The translations under genes and the position numbers were made by a program. 64,000 bases of DNA from a virus: the IMG/VR virus record IMGVR_UViG_3300042293_000555, positions 1 through 64,000 of that record, one strand, 5' to 3'. Positions 20,507 through 29,620 of the stretch are shown one piece after another; within the stretch, counting starts at the first letter, position 1, and each line of letters opens with the position of its first letter. The notes under the pieces were generated by a model. The model did no database searches and was not told where the DNA came from. It saw only the letters and a list, made by a program, of their open reading frames with translations.

Positions 20507-20726
20507 GAAACTGTAGCTCATTGGTAGAGCACTGCAAGGGGAGATTAGACTACTTCCACAAAGGCATTGACTGATTTAAGTGAGTTATAATCCTACGGGA
20601 GTTATAACTATATACAGCACTTACTTCCTGAAAAAGGAATCTTATGAAAATAAGATTAAAGAATGCAATAAGTCGCAGGGGCTATGTGTCATCATAGAAT
20701 ACTGAGTTCGATTCTCAGCAGTTTCA
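20507..20726 (+). ncRNA. tRNA-like RNA with ~140-nt structured insert replacing the anticodon loop
   Basis: Acceptor GAAACTG/CAGTTTC+A; D arm GCTC-ATTGGTA-GAGC; T arm CTGAG-TTCGATT-CTCAG; CTGC/GCAG closes the insert; long variable arm CTATG/CATAG. Confidence 0.75.
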
Positions 20727-24092: not shown

Positions 24093-24172
24093 GATTCTGT
24101 AGCTTAATGGTAGAGTATCAAATACAGTGCACTTTAGTAGTTGAGATATTGGTTCAAGTCCAATCAGAATCA
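24093..24172 (+). ncRNA. tRNA-like RNA with extended, non-canonical anticodon arm
   Basis: Acceptor GATTCTG/CAGAATC+A; D arm GCTT/GAGT; T arm ATTGG-TTCAAGT-CCAAT; anticodon arm TCAAATAC-AGTGCACTTTA-GTAGTTGA with no 7-nt loop. Confidence 0.65.
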
Positions 24173-24229: not shown

Positions 24230-24303
24230 GATTCTGTAGCTCAACTGAATAGAGCAACTATTTTCTAAGTAGTAGGTTTTAGGTTTGAATCCTAACAGAA
24301 TCA
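24230..24303 (+). tRNA. tRNA-Arg (UCU)
   Basis: Acceptor GATTCTG/CAGAATC; D arm GCTC/GAGC; anticodon stem ACTAT/GTAGT with loop TT-TCT-AA; T arm TTAGG-TTTGAAT-CCTAA; no encoded CCA; AGA is a frequent Arg codon in this window. Confidence 0.8.
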
Positions 24304-24411
24304 CAATTTCCATCTGTGTGTATTTAGTTTTGGCCATTGTAGTAATACAGTGGCTTTTTGTATGTCAACAATTTATTAAACATATTTATTAAACAATTCA
24401 ATCAAAAAATT

Positions 24412-25150: not shown

Positions 25151-27076
25151 ATGATAGACTATGTATATGACATTGAGTTATATTCAAATTTCTTTCTTTT
25201 ATGTGCACAAAACACTAAGACTAAAGAGAGAATATCTTTTGAAATATCTCAGAGAAAAGTAGAAACTGTTAAGTTAGTGGATTGGTTATCTACTAACATC
25301 AGGTTATTTGGATTTAACTGCATAGCCTATGATGGTAAAATACTACAAAAGTTATTAGAGCATACTTACTTAAAAGGTAAAGATTTAATAAAAGTACTGA
25401 AGAAGCATTCAGATAGACTGATATTAGATGAAACCTATGCTAAATTTTCTCGTAAGTTTACACAAAAACCTAATGTAGACTTATTTTTACTACATCATTT
25501 TGATAATGATGCAAGAAGAACTTCTCTAAAAGATTTAGAGTTTGTATTCAATATGCCTAATATTCAAGAGTTACCTTTTGATTATACTAAACCTGTTACT
25601 CTTGCACAAATGTCTATTCTTGTAGACTATTGTTGGAATGATATTGATGCTACTCAAATATTGTATGACAGATCTCAAGAAGCTTTATCATTAAGAGAAA
25701 GTTTATCTAATACTTATGGTGTAGATATGCTTTCTTGGAACTCACCTAAAATAGGTGAACAAAGTTTTGCATTTAAGTTAGCAGAAAGAATTGGTCCTGC
25801 AAAATTACAGAAGAAAAGTCCTCGTAAATCTATAGCTATTGGTGACATTATCTTCCCTTATATACAGTTTGAAACAGTAGGATTTCAAAAATTACTATCC
25901 TATTTGAAAAAAAAGGTAATCACTGATACTTACAAAGTTTTTAGTGAGTTACCATTTGAAGAACTAACAGAAATAGAAGGTCATTACAATGTATATAAAA
26001 CTAAAGGTGTACAAAAGAATCTCAATATTGTACACGATGGATTTGAGTTTGTATTTGGTACAGGTGGAGTACATGGTTGTATTGATCCAGGAGTATATCT
26101 TGTAGATGATGAACACACTATTGATGATATTGATGTATCTTCTTATTATCCTAACTTAGGTATCAAGAACAAATTATATCCTGAACATTTGGGTATAGAG
26201 TTTTGTGATGTTTATGGTGAGAGATATGAAGAACGTGGTATATATCCTAAAGGTAGTGTTACAAATACTTCTATCAAGCTTGAACTCAATGGAGTATATG
26301 GTAAGAGTAATTCTAAATTCTCACCATTCTATGACCCCAAGTATACTATGGCCATTACCATTAATGGACAGCTTTTACTTACAATGCTTGCTGAACAACT
26401 TATGAAAATTAGTCAGATACTTCAGATAAATACTGATGGTGTAACTATTAGAGTTCATAAATCACAAAAGGAAAATGTAAATGCTATCATTGAATGGTGG
26501 CAAAAACTTACTCAGCTTACTTTGGAAAGTGCAAGTTATTCTAAGATGGTTATCAAAGATGTATCTAATTACTTAGCTGTTTATACTAATAACAAGGTAA
26601 AGAGAAAGGGTGCTGCATTTAAAACTTTAACAGAACTTGAAATGCATGAGAATTTATCTTGTGTAGTAGTTCAGGAAGCTATATCAGCATATTACATTTC
26701 CAATACACCACCAATACAATATCTTATGCAAGAGTTAGAGAATGGTTTATCTAAATTTTACTCAAAAGTAAAAATACAGAGAGATCACAAACTTGTAGCA
26801 AGGTATGAAGATGAAGATATACCACAACAAAGAGTTACAAGATATCTTATTACAAATACAGGATGCTCTCTTATTAAAATTATGCCACCAATAAAGGTGA
26901 AAGAGAGAGAATCTGAAGTTGAAGCAGGTTGGAAGTGTACACCATGTAATAATTTGACTACAATGAATTTAGAAGAATTAAAACAGAATCTAAACTTAGA
27001 ATATTATCTCTTACAAATAAACAAAATCATAGATGGAATCTCTAACGGCAGGAAAAAGAAAAAAGCTGCAAAGTGA
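25151..27076 (+). CDS. polB: DNA polymerase family B
   Basis: Exo motifs DIELYSN, FNCIAYD, YCWND; pol motifs DIDVSSYYP, KLELNGVYGK, INTDG. Confidence 0.92.
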   Translation: MIDYVYDIELYSNFFLLCAQNTKTKERISFEISQRKVETVKLVDWLSTNIRLFGFNCIAYDGKILQKLLEHTYLKGKDLIKVLKKHSDRLILDETYAKFSRKFTQKPNVDLFLLHHFDNDARRTSLKDLEFVFNMPNIQELPFDYTKPVTLAQMSILVDYCWNDIDATQILYDRSQEALSLRESLSNTYGVDMLSWNSPKIGEQSFAFKLAERIGPAKLQKKSPRKSIAIGDIIFPYIQFETVGFQKLLSYLKKKVITDTYKVFSELPFEELTEIEGHYNVYKTKGVQKNLNIVHDGFEFVFGTGGVHGCIDPGVYLVDDEHTIDDIDVSSYYPNLGIKNKLYPEHLGIEFCDVYGERYEERGIYPKGSVTNTSIKLELNGVYGKSNSKFSPFYDPKYTMAITINGQLLLTMLAEQLMKISQILQINTDGVTIRVHKSQKENVNAIIEWWQKLTQLTLESASYSKMVIKDVSNYLAVYTNNKVKRKGAAFKTLTELEMHENLSCVVVQEAISAYYISNTPPIQYLMQELENGLSKFYSKVKIQRDHKLVARYEDEDIPQQRVTRYLITNTGCSLIKIMPPIKVKERESEVEAGWKCTPCNNLTTMNLEELKQNLNLEYYLLQINKIIDGISNGRKKKKAAK

Positions 27077-28130
27077 TGCTACACTTGCAATCTTAGACAA
27101 TTCCTTTACTGGAATTATTTGTATAGCACCAAGAGTAGGTAAAAGTAAGATTATATGTGATGCAATCAAACCTATGAAAACTAAAAAGTTTCTTATTACA
27201 GCACCATATAATACAATTTTAGAATCTTGGAAAAAAGAATTTGAAAAATGGAGAATGAATCCAAAAAATATTACACTTATTAATCAGAGAAGTTTAAGTA
27301 AAGAAGACTTATCTAAGTATGATGTAATAATATGTGATGAAGTACATACTCTTAGTGATGCACAAATGTTATTGTTAAAAGATTTTAAAGGAAGACTATT
27401 AGGTGCTTCAGGTTCTATTTCAAAAGAAACTGAAAAAACTTTAAAGTTAGAATTAGGTCTTCAGAAAATATTTGAATTTACTATAGAACAAGCTATAGAG
27501 ATGGGCATTGTTGCTGATTATGAAATTATCTTAGTACCTGTTACATTAGATGCTACTAACAAGTATATTGAAGCAGGCTCTAAAGATGCAAAGTTTCTTA
27601 CTACAGAATATGCTAATTATCAGTATCATACAGCACAATTTGAGAAGTTTAAGAAAATGGCTTGGAACAATAAGAAATTTGAATTTGTAAAAATGGCAGA
27701 AGCTTCAAGAAGAGCTGAACTTATTTACAAGTCAAGAACTAAAATTGAAAGAGTTAAAAAACTTATCAAAGACCAAGAGAGATGTCTTATATTTACTGCA
27801 AGAACAGAAGTTGCTGATGAGTTTGCTACAGGTTATCACTCTAAAGTAAATCCCAACATTCTTACTCAGTTTATGGATGGAGAACTCAATAAACTTGCTG
27901 TATGTGAGATGACTAATATGGGTGTAACTTTTCCTAATCTTAAGACAGGTATATTTCATCAGATGAGAAGTGGAGAAGAATCTGCTATTCAAAAGGTAAT
28001 GAGAATGTGTAATGTTGAAGAAGATGAAAAAGCTACTATTTATATAGTGTATTATGCAAATACTGTAGATGAAGAATGGACTAAGAAAGCTCTTATTGGT
28101 TTAAATCCTGATAAAATTAAGATAATCTAA
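27033..28130 (+). CDS. Superfamily 2 (DExH) helicase
   Basis: APRVGKS Walker A, ICDEVH, ASGS, GVTFPNL, QKVMR. Confidence 0.85.
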   Translation: MESLTAGKRKKLQSDATLAILDNSFTGIICIAPRVGKSKIICDAIKPMKTKKFLITAPYNTILESWKKEFEKWRMNPKNITLINQRSLSKEDLSKYDVIICDEVHTLSDAQMLLLKDFKGRLLGASGSISKETEKTLKLELGLQKIFEFTIEQAIEMGIVADYEIILVPVTLDATNKYIEAGSKDAKFLTTEYANYQYHTAQFEKFKKMAWNNKKFEFVKMAEASRRAELIYKSRTKIERVKKLIKDQERCLIFTARTEVADEFATGYHSKVNPNILTQFMDGELNKLAVCEMTNMGVTFPNLKTGIFHQMRSGEESAIQKVMRMCNVEEDEKATIYIVYYANTVDEEWTKKALIGLNPDKIKII

Positions 28131-28181
28131 CTTAATGACAGATGAAAATCGTTGTATTAGGGCATAATTAAGTTAGTAAAT

Positions 28182-28299
28182 TTCGGTGTAATTCAAATGG
28201 TTAAGAATAGGTGGTGCGGGAAATGTATTGATACCCAATCTATCAGACACAACTAATACAAGTAAAGTGTAAATACAGGTTCGAGTCCTGTCACCGAAA
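28182..28299 (+). ncRNA. tRNA-like RNA with expanded anticodon and variable arms
   Basis: Acceptor TTCGGTG/CACCGAA+A; D arm ATTC/GAAT with GG; T arm ACAGG-TTCGAGT-CCTGT; GGTGG..GGG-13nt-CCC..CTATC; ACAC-16nt-GTGT. Confidence 0.7.
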
Positions 28300-28301
28300 C
28301 T

Positions 28302-28472
28302 ATAAACAACTAATGATTAACACTAATAAATACACGAGTGCTTTTAGTCAGTTGTATCTCACAGTTCTCAAATGTTAGTGATTAGGTTAATGTATCTGTC
28401 GGCAGACATGGAGTGTATGGGTTTGGGCATACATAGATACCCTATTGAGAAGGCATTAGTTGTTTATTTTTT
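28302..28472 (+). ncRNA. Unclassified structured RNA directly after the tRNA-like element
   Basis: Perfect 14-bp closing stem ATAAACAACTAATG/CATTAGTTGTTTAT; inner CACTAA/TTAGTG, GTATCTGT/ATAGATAC, TGTATG/CATACA, TTCTCAA/TTGAGAA. Confidence 0.55.
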
Positions 28473-28494
28473 AACATTTTAAAACAATAATATT

Positions 28495-28719
28495 ATGGAA
28501 AAGATACCAACAGCAGAAGAATTTATAAAAGAAGCTCAGTCTAATCCAAGTAAAGGATGGACTGCACGTAAACTAATGATTGAATTTGCTAAACTTCATG
28601 TAGAAGCTGCATTAAAAGCTGCTGCTGAGAATGTACAAACAAATTATTTCTATACTGAAGATGATCCTATAGATAAAGACTCAATCCTCAATTCTTATCC
28701 ACCAAATTTAATCAAGTAA
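28495..28719 (+). CDS. Conserved small phage hypothetical protein
   Basis: IPTAEEF..MIEFAKLHVEAALKAA..IDKDSILNSYP. Confidence 0.65.
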   Translation: MEKIPTAEEFIKEAQSNPSKGWTARKLMIEFAKLHVEAALKAAAENVQTNYFYTEDDPIDKDSILNSYPPNLIK

Positions 28720-28720
28720 T

Positions 28721-28954
28721 ATGAAATACTTATTTATCCTAATATTATTAGTATTTACAAGCTGTGTAGATCAACAAGAGAGATTTAATAATCTCAAGAA
28801 AATGTATCCTAATTGTAAAGTAGAACCTTCTACAGGATTACTACAACAAGGTGGATATGACTTTTTAGTTATTGATAGTAATGAGCAAATGATTGCTGTC
28901 AAATTTCGTGAGCTTAGTACTACAAAGATTTCTTCACTTAGAAATGTAAGATAA
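28721..28954 (+). CDS. Putative lipoprotein
   Basis: MKYLFILILLVFTSC lipobox-like signal. Confidence 0.6.
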   Translation: MKYLFILILLVFTSCVDQQERFNNLKKMYPNCKVEPSTGLLQQGGYDFLVIDSNEQMIAVKFRELSTTKISSLRNVR

Positions 28955-29080
28955 TATGATGAAGGATATAAACGTGGTCAAATAGATTGTCAAAATGATT
29001 CATTACTTTGGAAAAAGATTATGAATAATGATGGTGAGATTATATTTCAAAAGATTAAATAACCCTTAAATACTGTAAAG

Positions 29081-29620
29081 ATGACAATTAACCAAGAGTT
29101 AGTTAAGTTTCTGCATAACTCAAATGTAGAGTGTGATTTAGCATTATTATACTTACTGTCCTTATATCATGGACTTACTACTGATGACCTTATACCTGAA
29201 GCTACTGTTAGAGCAGTAAATACTATAGGGATTGTTGAGAGAGATTACAAAACTAATACTCTCAATTGGCATATAGCATTATATGATGGACAAAGTACAG
29301 ATGGTGTATGGGAATGGGTAAATGAGTTTAGAAAACTCTTTGCTTCTAAGAACAAAGAAAGAGAAGGTAACAAGAAAGCTTGTGTTCAGAGAATGAAAAT
29401 GTTCTTTACTCAAAATCCTGACATTAGAAAACAGGATGTATTGGAAGCAACAATGATGTATCTTAGGTCAACAGATCCTAAATATGTCAAGATGGCAGAG
29501 AGATTTATCTTTGATGGACAAGGTAATTATAAAACTTCTCTACTTACTGATTGGGTAGATAGATTAAGAGAAATCAGAATGAAACAAATTGTTGACCCAA
29601 CTACTAAAATTATGAAGTAA
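29081..29620 (+). CDS. Replication-module protein (possible helicase loader/initiator)
   Basis: Translationally coupled (TAATG) to the DnaB-like helicase. Confidence 0.55.
   Translation: MTINQELVKFLHNSNVECDLALLYLLSLYHGLTTDDLIPEATVRAVNTIGIVERDYKTNTLNWHIALYDGQSTDGVWEWVNEFRKLFASKNKEREGNKKACVQRMKMFFTQNPDIRKQDVLEATMMYLRSTDPKYVKMAERFIFDGQGNYKTSLLTDWVDRLREIRMKQIVDPTTKIMK

What the first reader, a model, noticed from the sequence alone, without database searches (positions are those of the whole stretch)
28127..28299. tRNA-like RNA whose enlarged anticodon and variable loops are complementary, with a competing leader
Seen: the anticodon-position loop AAATGTATTGATA contains TGTATT, complementary to AATACA in the variable-arm loop AACTAATACAAGTAAA. 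The upstream hairpin (CTAACTTAAT/ATTAAGTTAG, 28127-28176) carries TTGTATTAG (28152-28160), a perfect 9-nt complement of CTAATACAA (28253-28261). Inference: an intramolecular kissing loop with an alternative leader pairing, i.e. a conformational or processing switch on a tRNA frame.
Basis: partly seen in the sequence, partly recalled or inferred. Interest (0 to 1): 0.7.

Follow-up and report, generated by a model that had tools for sequence, protein, structure and literature searches.

The report
Self-locked tRNA look-alike in phage
This lake-water phage carries a 118-base gene shaped like a transfer RNA, but the tips of its two lengthened lower arms pair with each other instead of offering an anticodon; 33 distinct versions from other uncultured phages keep that pairing through matching mutations, so it is a real, selected RNA whose job is still unknown.

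Summary
In this one sequence the 6-nt loop-loop match is only marginal (p about 0.06 on shuffled loops). Pattern scans then found 49 loci with 33 distinct sequences of the same 116-119-nt RNA in uncultured phage contigs of 1-322 kb. About half lie within 1 kb of ordinary tRNA genes.

Across this family the loop-loop helix (28224-28229 with 28255-28260) is paired in 99% of cells. Four of its six pairs show changes on both sides. Acceptor, D, T and both long arms also covary, as does the R15:Y48 tertiary pair. The kissing loop is therefore supported.

The leader half of the claim is not. The 9-nt leader complement exists only in this phage; 30 other upstream flanks reach only 4-6 nt.

No copy has a usable anticodon, and the 'intron-bearing tRNA-Leu' call from ARAGORN is a forced fit. 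The gene sits in a 946-bp block that is present or absent among near-identical phages.

I found no such family in Rfam 15 or in the papers I searched. The closest known design is phage T4 RNA C. This scan's earlier notes report similar RNAs in other phages. Function is inferred only: most likely a non-decoding tRNA mimic.

The parts
28182..28299 (+). Whole tRNA-shaped RNA gene (118 nt), with discriminator A at 28299 and no encoded CCA
   Evidence: Rfam tRNA 38.3 bits. The family model R1 scores 135.4 bits and finds it as the only copy in the 85,045-bp genome.
28182..28188 (+). Acceptor stem 5' strand TTCGGTG, pairing with CACCGAA at 28292-28298
   Evidence: Six of 7 pairs show changes on both sides across the family. 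In this copy all 7 positions differ from the consensus AGUCAGG/CCUGACU yet still pair.
28191..28208 (+). D arm: stem ATTC/GAAT and loop AAATGGTTAA with G18G19
   Evidence: Two of 4 pairs change on both sides. The second D-loop base (A or G) covaries perfectly with the base before the T stem (T or C): 28 A:T and 5 G:C. This matches the R15:Y48 Levitt pair.
28210..28244 (+). Lengthened anticodon-position arm (X): GGTGG/CTATC stem, 3x3 internal loop TGC/AAT, GGG/CCC stem, 13-nt loop
   Evidence: RNAalifold predicts it independently. Pair 28213-28241 varies GC 21, GU 10, AU 2. A lake variant carries T28241C, which turns G.U into G-C.
28224..28229 (+). X-loop strand of the kissing helix, TGTATT
   Evidence: Helix 5: 99% paired, and 4 of 6 pairs change on both sides.
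28247..28270 (+). Long variable-position arm (Y): ACAC/GTGT stem, inner helix ACT/AGT, 6-nt loop
   Evidence: The outer stem is invariant. The inner helix shows two pairs with changes on both sides (L088 GCC/GGU, L110 AUU/AAU).
28255..28260 (+). Y-loop strand of the kissing helix, AATACA (the whole hairpin loop)
   Evidence: every one of the 33 sequences keeps a 6-9-bp X-Y duplex.
28275..28291 (+). T arm ACAGG TTCGAGT CCTGT
   Evidence: All 5 pairs change on both sides somewhere in the family.
28127..28176 (+). Upstream 10-bp hairpin whose 30-nt loop holds TTGTATTAG (28152-28160), complementary to 28253-28261. It is specific to this phage.
   Evidence: It is not found upstream of other family members. 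The hairpin starts exactly at the left edge of the 946-bp indel.
28127..29072 (+). Accessory block holding the hairpin, the RNA gene, a further structured stretch and two small ORFs (74 and 77 aa)
   Evidence: A contig from run X13 joins 28126 to 29073, with 18 other letters in between. Relatives whose helicase is 61-70% identical run from the helicase straight into the 179-aa gene. The 98%-identical contig L075 is identical over 27945-29500.

Best explanation
It is a phage gene for a non-decoding, tRNA-shaped small RNA, one member of a tightly conserved family in uncultured phages. Shown here: the top half of a tRNA (acceptor stem, D arm, T arm, the R15:Y48 tertiary pair and discriminator A) is maintained through compensating changes. 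The bottom half is two lengthened hairpins, one at the anticodon position and one at the variable-arm position. The loops of these two hairpins form a 6-bp helix that also covaries. No copy offers a 7-nt anticodon loop with U33. Inferred: the RNA is made and trimmed like a tRNA, by RNase P at the 5' end and by 3' trimming plus CCA addition, because half of the copies sit in tRNA arrays and none encodes CCA. The loop-loop lock then freezes a rigid lower half that cannot reach a codon, and the near-invariant unpaired bases are a recognition surface. My preferred function, at about 35% odds, is a tRNA mimic that occupies or misleads a host tRNA-binding factor, such as a tRNA-cleaving defence enzyme or a tRNA-handling enzyme. 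This rests on the gene being a phage-only accessory that is gained and lost between near-identical phages. The 9-nt leader complement is peculiar to this phage and is probably chance or a local quirk of the precursor.
For: Rfam tRNA scores 38.3 bits with a 61-nt replacement of the anticodon arm. Scans gave 49 loci and 33 distinct sequences. In the alignment, 98.7% of cells are paired, 20 of 37 pairs change on both sides, and 0 of 500 shuffles reach this; slid controls give 31-41% paired. The kissing helix is 99% paired, with 4 of 6 pairs changed on both sides. RNAalifold gives the same nested fold. R15:Y48 covaries perfectly, 28 A:U and 5 G:C. Family members score 128-148 bits with model R1, while every other tRNA or tRNA-like hit scores 40 bits or less. 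In 24 of 47 loci a canonical tRNA lies within 1 kb. The gene lies in a 946-bp indel and is absent from full-length relatives. The core pattern has no match in 185,579 prokaryote species genomes. No cultured-phage record covers more than 25% of it, and the matches lie over the T arm and acceptor 3' strand. Phage tRNAs are already known to counter defence systems that destroy tRNA (PMC11555353).
Against: There is no RNA evidence: no RNA run holds the stretch, so expression, ends, CCA addition and charging are untested. The function is inference only. No conserved neighbouring protein points to a partner. Covariation cannot tell pairing within one molecule from pairing between two. The compensating events in the kissing helix come from few lineages (L105/L109, L115, plus three one-sided changes). 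Most members are more than 90% alike, so part of the conservation may reflect recent spread. Helices GGG/CCC and ACAC/GTGT never vary, so they are not tested by covariation.
Confidence: 0.8

Rival explanations
1. Intron-bearing decoding tRNA. The extra 26-44 nt would be an intervening sequence, as in the 'enigmatic introns' of Lak megaphage tRNAs, and its removal would give a working tRNA-Leu(CAG).
For: With its intron option ARAGORN calls tRNA-Leu(cag) with a 26-nt intron. Phage tRNAs with unexplained introns have been reported (bioRxiv 10.1101/356790).
Against: ARAGORN with the intron option calls a tRNA in 81 of 300 versions whose central 65 nt were shuffled. Its anticodon stem has a G.A mismatch and competes with GGTGG/CTATC, which covariation supports. 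Its 'anticodon' would read CAG here but CGG in most members. The supposed intron is the best conserved part of the gene and pairs with the variable arm. No family member lacks the insert. No choice of 7 loop bases gives U33 (read).
Confidence: 0.03
2. Leader-controlled conformational or processing switch. In the precursor, TTGTATTAG (28152-28160) would capture the variable-arm loop and block the kissing loop until RNase P removes the leader.
For: There is a perfect 9-nt complement displayed in the 30-nt loop of a 10-bp hairpin. It arises in 0.5% of shuffles of the flank. It is retained in the 98%-identical contig L075.
Against: It is absent from 30 other distinct upstream flanks, where the longest complement is 4-6 nt at shuffle frequencies of 0.2-1.0. 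The flank is part of a block unique to this phage lineage. The only second copy is identical, so there is no test by variation. About 60 flanks were examined in all, and one outlier at this level is expected by chance about one time in four.
Confidence: 0.1
3. Dedicated amino-acid carrier. The RNA would be charged by a synthetase that ignores the anticodon, with LeuRS as the best fit (A73, mostly A15:U48, long extra arm). It would then donate the amino acid to a non-ribosomal acceptor, or titrate the synthetase.
For: Discriminator A is kept in 31 of 33 sequences, the top half is intact, and the acceptor stem sequence is free to vary, as expected for LeuRS-type recognition. The identity rules themselves come from my own knowledge of E. 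coli tRNA-Leu.
Against: The D stem has 4 pairs, unlike class II tRNAs. The closest canonical tRNAs by model R1 are class I types: Ile in L095 and Lys in L090, at 34-37 bits. No transferase gene is linked. Charging is untested.
Confidence: 0.12
4. The loops pair between molecules, giving head-to-tail dimers or chains, or pair with another RNA, rather than within one molecule.
For: Covariation is equally compatible with pairing in trans. Six-nt loops fully complementary to each other are classic dimerisation elements (general knowledge).
Against: Both partners lie 25 nt apart on one molecule, on arms leaving the same junction. A conserved 3x3 internal loop with an invariant G and two invariant A could supply the bend needed for pairing in cis, as the kink in the lysine riboswitch P2 does for its L2-L3 kiss (my knowledge, not tested).
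Confidence: 0.1
5. Decaying tRNA pseudogene, or chance AT-rich complementarity.
For: In the single sequence the 6-nt match has p about 0.06. The whole-element fold has z = -1.4.
Against: There are 33 distinct sequences with 91% mean column identity and compensating changes in every variable helix. The element is spread over unrelated contigs of 1-322 kb.
Confidence: 0.01

Closest known systems
Phage T4 RNA C (species 1 RNA, rnaC; NC_000866 70908-71046)
   Same: It is a small phage RNA with a tRNA-type T arm and paired ends, encoded beside tRNA genes. It carries two long arms in place of the anticodon region. The loop of one arm (UUGACG) is fully complementary to the 6-nt loop of the other (CGUCAA). 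Both strings are invariant in five T4-like phages, although the flanking stems change. Its role is still unknown (PMC3014915, PMC9697503).
   Different: There is no detectable sequence relationship: model R1 gives 16.1 bits, E 0.19, over part of rnaC. T4 RNA C is 139 nt and has no canonical D arm. Its loop pairing shows conservation but no covariation in my five sequences. The hosts are enterobacteria.
Class II tRNAs (Leu, Ser, bacterial Tyr; Rfam RF00005)
   Same: Shared features are the acceptor, D and T arms, U8, G18G19, the T-loop, the R15:Y48 pair, a long extra arm between the anticodon arm and the T arm, and discriminator A.
   Different: There is no 7-nt anticodon loop and no U33. The 'anticodon' bases vary together with the extra-arm loop. 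The anticodon arm is about 6 layers too long. The D stem has 4 pairs rather than 3.
Lak megaphage tRNAs with 'enigmatic introns' (bioRxiv 10.1101/356790)
   Same: These are oversized tRNA-like genes in phages of Bacteroidota-type hosts. Their inserts are highly conserved and unexplained.
   Different: In those genes, removing the insert is reported to leave a typed tRNA, and copies without the insert exist. Here no copy lacks the insert and none yields an anticodon. The sequences were not compared.
Loop-loop locked junction RNAs (purine riboswitch L2-L3, lysine riboswitch L2-L3)
   Same: Two helices leaving one junction are tied together by pairing of their terminal loops. This is a resemblance in design only, recalled from my own knowledge.
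   Different: Those are cis-acting ligand sensors in mRNA leaders. This is a free-standing gene on a tRNA frame, and there is no evidence of a ligand.

Membership tests
tRNA (Rfam RF00005) | Cloverleaf with acceptor, D and T arms scoring above the curated cut-off | tested here: met
   38.3 bits against a cut-off of 29. All three arms covary.
tRNA (Rfam RF00005) | 5-bp anticodon stem closing a 7-nt loop with U33 and an anticodon kept among orthologues | tested here: not met
   The stem encloses 25 nt, and no 7-nt choice gives U33. The loop bases at the anticodon position read GUA, AUA or GCU and change together with the other loop.
tRNA (Rfam RF00005) | Aminoacylation and use on the ribosome | not testable with these tools
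   No RNA or biochemical data are available. No RNA run is listed.
Intron-containing tRNA | Removing the insert leaves a canonical anticodon arm with the same anticodon in all homologues | tested here: not met
   The ARAGORN model gives CAG here and CGG in most members, and it is called in 27% of shuffles.
Intron-containing tRNA | Insert-free alleles or spliced RNA exist | tested here: inconclusive
   None of the 33 distinct sequences lacks the insert, but every scan pattern required part of the insert. There are no RNA data.
T4 RNA C-type phage small RNA | Sequence or profile homology to rnaC | tested here: not met
   Model R1 scores 16.1 bits, E 0.19, on rnaC. blastn with the element found only T-arm matches in 50,697 phage records.
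T4 RNA C-type phage small RNA | tRNA-like ends and T arm, plus two long arms with mutually complementary loops | tested here: met
   Here. In T4: UUGACG and CGUCAA are invariant in 5 phages.
T4 RNA C-type phage small RNA | Encoded within the phage tRNA cluster | tested here: inconclusive
   Met for 24 of 47 family loci. This copy lies alone, 4 kb from the phage's tRNA pair.
tmRNA | tRNA-like ends enclosing a tag reading frame and pseudoknots, with a G3:U70 pair | tested here: not met
   ARAGORN and Rfam report no tmRNA. Only 61-65 nt lie between the D and T arms. Pair 3:70 is U:A or U:G.
Class II tRNA | Long variable arm, R15:Y48 pair and a 3-bp D stem | tested here: inconclusive
   The long arm and the 15:48 covariation are met. 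The D stem has 4 pairs.

The most novel reading that the evidence does not exclude
This family, T4 RNA C and the other oversized tRNA-like genes seen beside them may form one widespread class of phage 'anticodon-locked' tRNA mimics. Their intact top half would engage a host tRNA-binding machine, and their sealed bottom half would make them uncleavable and undecodable. In other words, they would be RNA decoys or inhibitors aimed at tRNA-targeting immunity or at a tRNA-handling enzyme.
Probability: 0.25. Interest if true: 0.85.

Novelty: new variant of a known kind. Interest (0 to 1): 0.62.

Why it matters
Phage tRNA genes are usually read as codon-usage helpers. More recently they have been read as spare parts against defence systems that cut tRNA. 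This element is a tRNA-derived gene that cannot decode, yet it is kept almost letter for letter in many unrelated phages. Its tertiary contact is proven by compensating mutations, which is rare for an RNA known only from metagenomes.

It gives a compact, testable model of 118 nt with one 6-bp lock and clear mutants. The same design, two complementary loops on a tRNA frame, is visible in T4 RNA C, whose role has been unknown for decades. T4 is tractable, so the question could be opened experimentally there.

It also shows that standard tRNA finders and whole-genome Rfam scans miss such genes.

Tried and rejected
Expression: no RNA holder is listed among public runs, so nothing can be said about expression.

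Standard finders: whole-window Rfam scans at the gathering and E-value thresholds missed the element. Only a 471-nt scan found it.

Synteny: the locus in helicase relatives lacks the element.

Linked genes: homologues of the downstream 74-aa ORF in 46 loci are not linked to any such RNA.

Exact 3'-end pattern: it found only the near-identical contig.

Cultured phages: blastn gave only T-arm matches.

Prokaryote genomes: the genome-contig scan gave 0 matches.

Tandem duplicate: the idea that 28300-28495 is a decayed copy of the element was rejected. The local alignment scored 34.5 against a shuffle mean of 31, and 53 of 200 shuffles did as well.

Neighbouring proteins: clustering found no family shared beyond near-identical contigs.

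Other RNA classes downstream: I considered a theta or HDV-like ribozyme, or another known RNA, next to the gene. There are no Rfam matches with E up to 10 apart from tRNA and one chance hit.

Archaeal-type splice motif: rejected by eye, because the two 3-nt loops face each other instead of being staggered across a 4-bp helix.

Descent from tRNA-Tyr: I considered this because the X loop holds UGUA opposite UAC, the discriminator is A, and no tRNA-Tyr appears among about 50 neighbouring tRNAs. I dropped it. The top half scores best against class I Ile and Lys tRNAs, and the absence of Tyr is not significant.

Variant contigs: contigs from four lake runs gave no variation inside the block, apart from the unrelated-flank homologue and the indel.

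Full report
**What is in the window.** The stretch 28182-28299 (+) has four canonical tRNA features:
- a perfect 7-bp acceptor stem (TTCGGTG/CACCGAA, or 8 bp counting the base before it);
- U8 and A9;
- a 4-bp D stem with a GG-containing loop;
- a textbook T arm (ACAGG TTCGAGT CCTGT) and discriminator A.

Between the D and T arms lie 65 nt instead of about 22. They form:
- a GGTGG/CTATC stem;
- a 3x3 internal loop;
- a GGG/CCC stem;
- a 13-nt loop;
- a second hairpin with an ACAC/GTGT stem, an inner ACT/AGT helix and a 6-nt loop AATACA.

Rfam's tRNA model scores 38.3 bits (cut-off 29) when only 471 nt are scanned. It treats the 61 central bases as a local insertion. Whole-window scans missed the element, and ARAGORN reports it only with the intron option. 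RNAfold gives the cloverleaf with both loops open but an unremarkable energy, z = -1.4.

**Is the complementarity more than chance in this one sequence?** Barely. With both loops shuffled, a 6-nt complement or longer appears in 6.2% of trials. The 9-nt leader match appears in 0.5% of shuffles of the 100-nt upstream flank. The 9-mer is not enriched in the window.

**Genomic setting.** The window belongs to an 85,045-bp IMG/VR virus record with direct terminal repeats and 30.7% G+C. Runs labelled lake-water and freshwater metagenomes hold it. The element lies between a helicase gene (27033-28130) and two small ORFs. In 25 relatives whose helicase is 61-70% identical, the helicase runs straight into the 179-aa gene that here starts at 29081. 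Two full-length relatives have no family member anywhere. A contig from run X13 joins 28126 to 29073 with 18 unrelated letters in between. The 946-bp block is therefore an indel in the living population. It holds the leader hairpin, the RNA gene, a further structured stretch and two small ORFs. The 98%-identical contig L075 has no difference at all over 27945-29500, although its flanks differ by 1-3%.

**Finding the family.** The same read-laying run showed 40x-deep short contigs that match 28209-28292 with eight differences. Their flanks are quite different and look like another tRNA's D arm and acceptor strand. That suggested the central domain is conserved elsewhere.
- An exact-pattern scan for the X hairpin (GGGAAATGTATTGATACCC) hit 16 further viral contigs of 4-322 kb.
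- Three further scans followed. The last of these, on metagenome contigs, left both loops unconstrained.
- In total this gave 49 loci and, with the window's own copy, 33 distinct 116-119-nt sequences.

A covariance model built from them scores members at 128-148 bits and everything else, ordinary tRNAs included, at 40 bits or less. The window's genome has one copy. The core pattern is absent from 185,579 prokaryote species genomes. No cultured-phage record covers more than a quarter of the element, and the listed matches lie over its T arm and acceptor 3' strand. A canonical tRNA gene lies within 1 kb in 24 of 47 loci, and several copies sit inside tRNA arrays. No protein family recurs next to the element.

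**Covariation.** On the 33-sequence alignment I counted the cloverleaf plus the proposed loop-loop helix, written as a pseudoknot.

| Measure | Result |
|---|---|
| Cells paired, whole structure | 98.7% |
| Pairs with changes on both sides | 20 of 37 |
| Shuffles reaching this | 0 of 500 |
| Cells paired when partners are slid by 1-3 columns | 31-41% |
| Acceptor stem, pairs changed on both sides | 6 of 7 |
| T stem, pairs changed on both sides | 5 of 5 |
| D stem, pairs changed on both sides | 2 of 4 |
| Inner Y helix, pairs changed on both sides | 2 of 3 |

- **Window copy.** It is striking in that all seven acceptor positions and two D-stem pairs differ from the consensus yet still pair. 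Its central domain is consensus-like.
- **Kissing helix (28224-28229 with 28255-28260).** It is 99% paired, and four of its six pairs change on both sides.
  - L105 has UAUACU opposite AGUAUA.
  - L109 has UAUACU opposite AGUGUA.
  - L115 has CGCUUU opposite AAGGCA.
  - L096, L097 and L113 have a U.G pair.
  - L099 has a G.U pair.
- **No retrieval bias.** These variants came from the scan that did not constrain the loops, so the pairing is not an artefact of how the sequences were retrieved.
- **Independent checks.** RNAalifold returns the same nested fold on its own. Every sequence keeps a 6-9-bp X-Y duplex.
- **Tertiary pair.** The second D-loop base and the base before the T stem covary perfectly, 28 A:U and 5 G:C. 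This is the R15:Y48 Levitt pair, so the L-shaped core is also under selection.

The GGG/CCC and ACAC/GTGT helices never vary, so covariation does not test them.

**What it is not.**
- **Not a decoding tRNA.**
  - No 7-nt window of the X loop has U33.
  - The arm is about six layers too long.
  - The bases at the would-be anticodon change together with the Y loop.
- **Not ARAGORN's tRNA-Leu(CAG) with a 26-nt intron.**
  - That model needs a mismatched stem that competes with a covarying one.
  - It would read CGG in most members.
  - ARAGORN returns such calls for 27% of sequences whose central region was shuffled.
- **Not a tmRNA or any other Rfam family**.
- **Downstream stretch not part of the family.** The region 28297-28472, closed by a 19-nt 89% inverted repeat, does not belong to it, because the flanks of other members are unrelated. 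The idea that it is a decayed duplicate of the element is not supported.

**The leader.** The 9-nt complement is confined to this phage lineage. Thirty other distinct upstream flanks and about thirty downstream flanks show only 4-6-nt complements, plus two of 8 nt, all at chance frequencies. The hairpin starts exactly at the left edge of the indel block. The 'competing leader' is therefore not a property of the RNA family. It may act in this phage's precursor, but nothing here tests that.

**Closest known.** RNA C has a T arm and paired ends. One arm's loop reads UUGACG and the other arm's 6-nt loop reads CGUCAA, a perfect complement. Both strings are invariant in five T4-like phages of four genera, while the stems around UUGACG are rebuilt. 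The design is therefore shared. There is no detectable homology: 16 bits with my model. Two papers state that the roles of RNA C and RNA D remain unknown (PMC3014915, PMC9697503). Lak megaphage tRNAs with 'enigmatic introns' are another reported oddity (bioRxiv 10.1101/356790), but I did not compare their sequences. I found no description of this family in Rfam 15 or in seven full-text searches. A 2023 catalogue of about 10,000 candidate viral RNAs mentions tRNA-like candidates (PMC10690425) and might contain it; I could not check. Earlier AI notes of this scan report similar self-locked tRNA mimics in other phage genomes. They are not independent evidence, but they agree with this reading.

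**How it most likely works.**
- *Shown:* a tRNA top half plus a sealed bottom half, both under purifying selection, in a phage-only accessory gene.
- *Inferred:* it is transcribed with, and processed like, tRNAs. The loop-loop helix, helped by a bend at the conserved 3x3 internal loop, makes a rigid lower body that cannot decode. The near-invariant unpaired bases are read by a partner.

I put about 35% on a mimic or decoy that engages a host tRNA-binding factor. The gain-and-loss pattern is typical of counter-defence genes, and phage tRNAs are known to counter tRNA-degrading defence (PMC11555353). I put about 12% on an amino-acid carrier or synthetase ligand, and about 10% each on pairing in trans and on a leader-dependent role. 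None of these is tested.

**Verdict.** The kissing-loop inference is supported by covariation. The leader switch is not conserved. The element is a member of an apparently uncatalogued phage RNA family whose nearest described analogue is T4 RNA C.

Noticed in passing
window 24093-24172 and 24230-24304; L075/L002 1-340: The first is an 80-nt tRNA (Rfam 48.4 bits) with an 8-bp anticodon-type stem and an 11-nt loop, which ARAGORN calls only as 'Stop(tta)' with an 8-nt intron. In the 98%-identical contig the same slot holds a 73-nt tRNA with different D and anticodon arms. In the neighbouring tRNA-Arg(TCT), all five anticodon-stem pairs are replaced while the loop is kept. The tRNA genes are local hot spots of change between near-identical phages.
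   Followed up: partly
window 20507-20726: Another tRNA frame: acceptor GAAACTG/CAGTTTC, canonical D and T arms, and a long extra arm with loop TGTCAT. It carries about 140 nt inside the anticodon stem. Rfam did not hit it in a 2.4-kb scan.
   Followed up: partly
window 28297-28472: A structured stretch directly after the element, closed by a 19-nt 89% inverted repeat, with inner hairpins. It is not conserved next to other family members and has no Rfam match.
   Followed up: partly
window 28127-29072: A 946-bp block that is present or absent among near-identical lake phages. It is replaced by 18 unrelated letters in a contig from run X13. There is zero divergence over 27945-29500 between two contigs that differ by 1-3% on either side, which suggests recent transfer or a sweep.
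   Followed up: yes
L079 6803-6926 and 7060-7219; L084 3540-3634, 3757-3854, 3931-4051; L108 7672-7799; L093 11476-11595; L102 11734-11852; L095 2424-2544, 3332-3446: Further oversized tRNA-like hits (95-160 nt, 20-37 bits with model R1) lie beside family members in phage tRNA arrays. These may be other tRNA-shaped RNA families.
   Followed up: no
L125 1409-1547 (T4 rnaC), L126-L129: In T4 RNA C the loop UUGACG is complementary to the loop CGUCAA. Both are invariant across Tequatrovirus, Kanagawavirus, Moonvirus and Karamvirus phages, while the stem around UUGACG is rebuilt.
   Followed up: partly
L083 1734-1808 and L119: An amber-suppressor-type tRNA (anticodon CTA) lies 83 nt downstream of the family member in one phage lineage. 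ARAGORN also flags tRNAs with 4-base anticodons in L082 and L103.
   Followed up: no
alignment A1 columns 51 and 73 (window 28231 and 28253): Two independent changes (L093 A to G, L110 C to U) each create a pair that would extend the loop-loop helix to 9 bp at the expense of the inner Y helix. This may be an alternative register.
   Followed up: no
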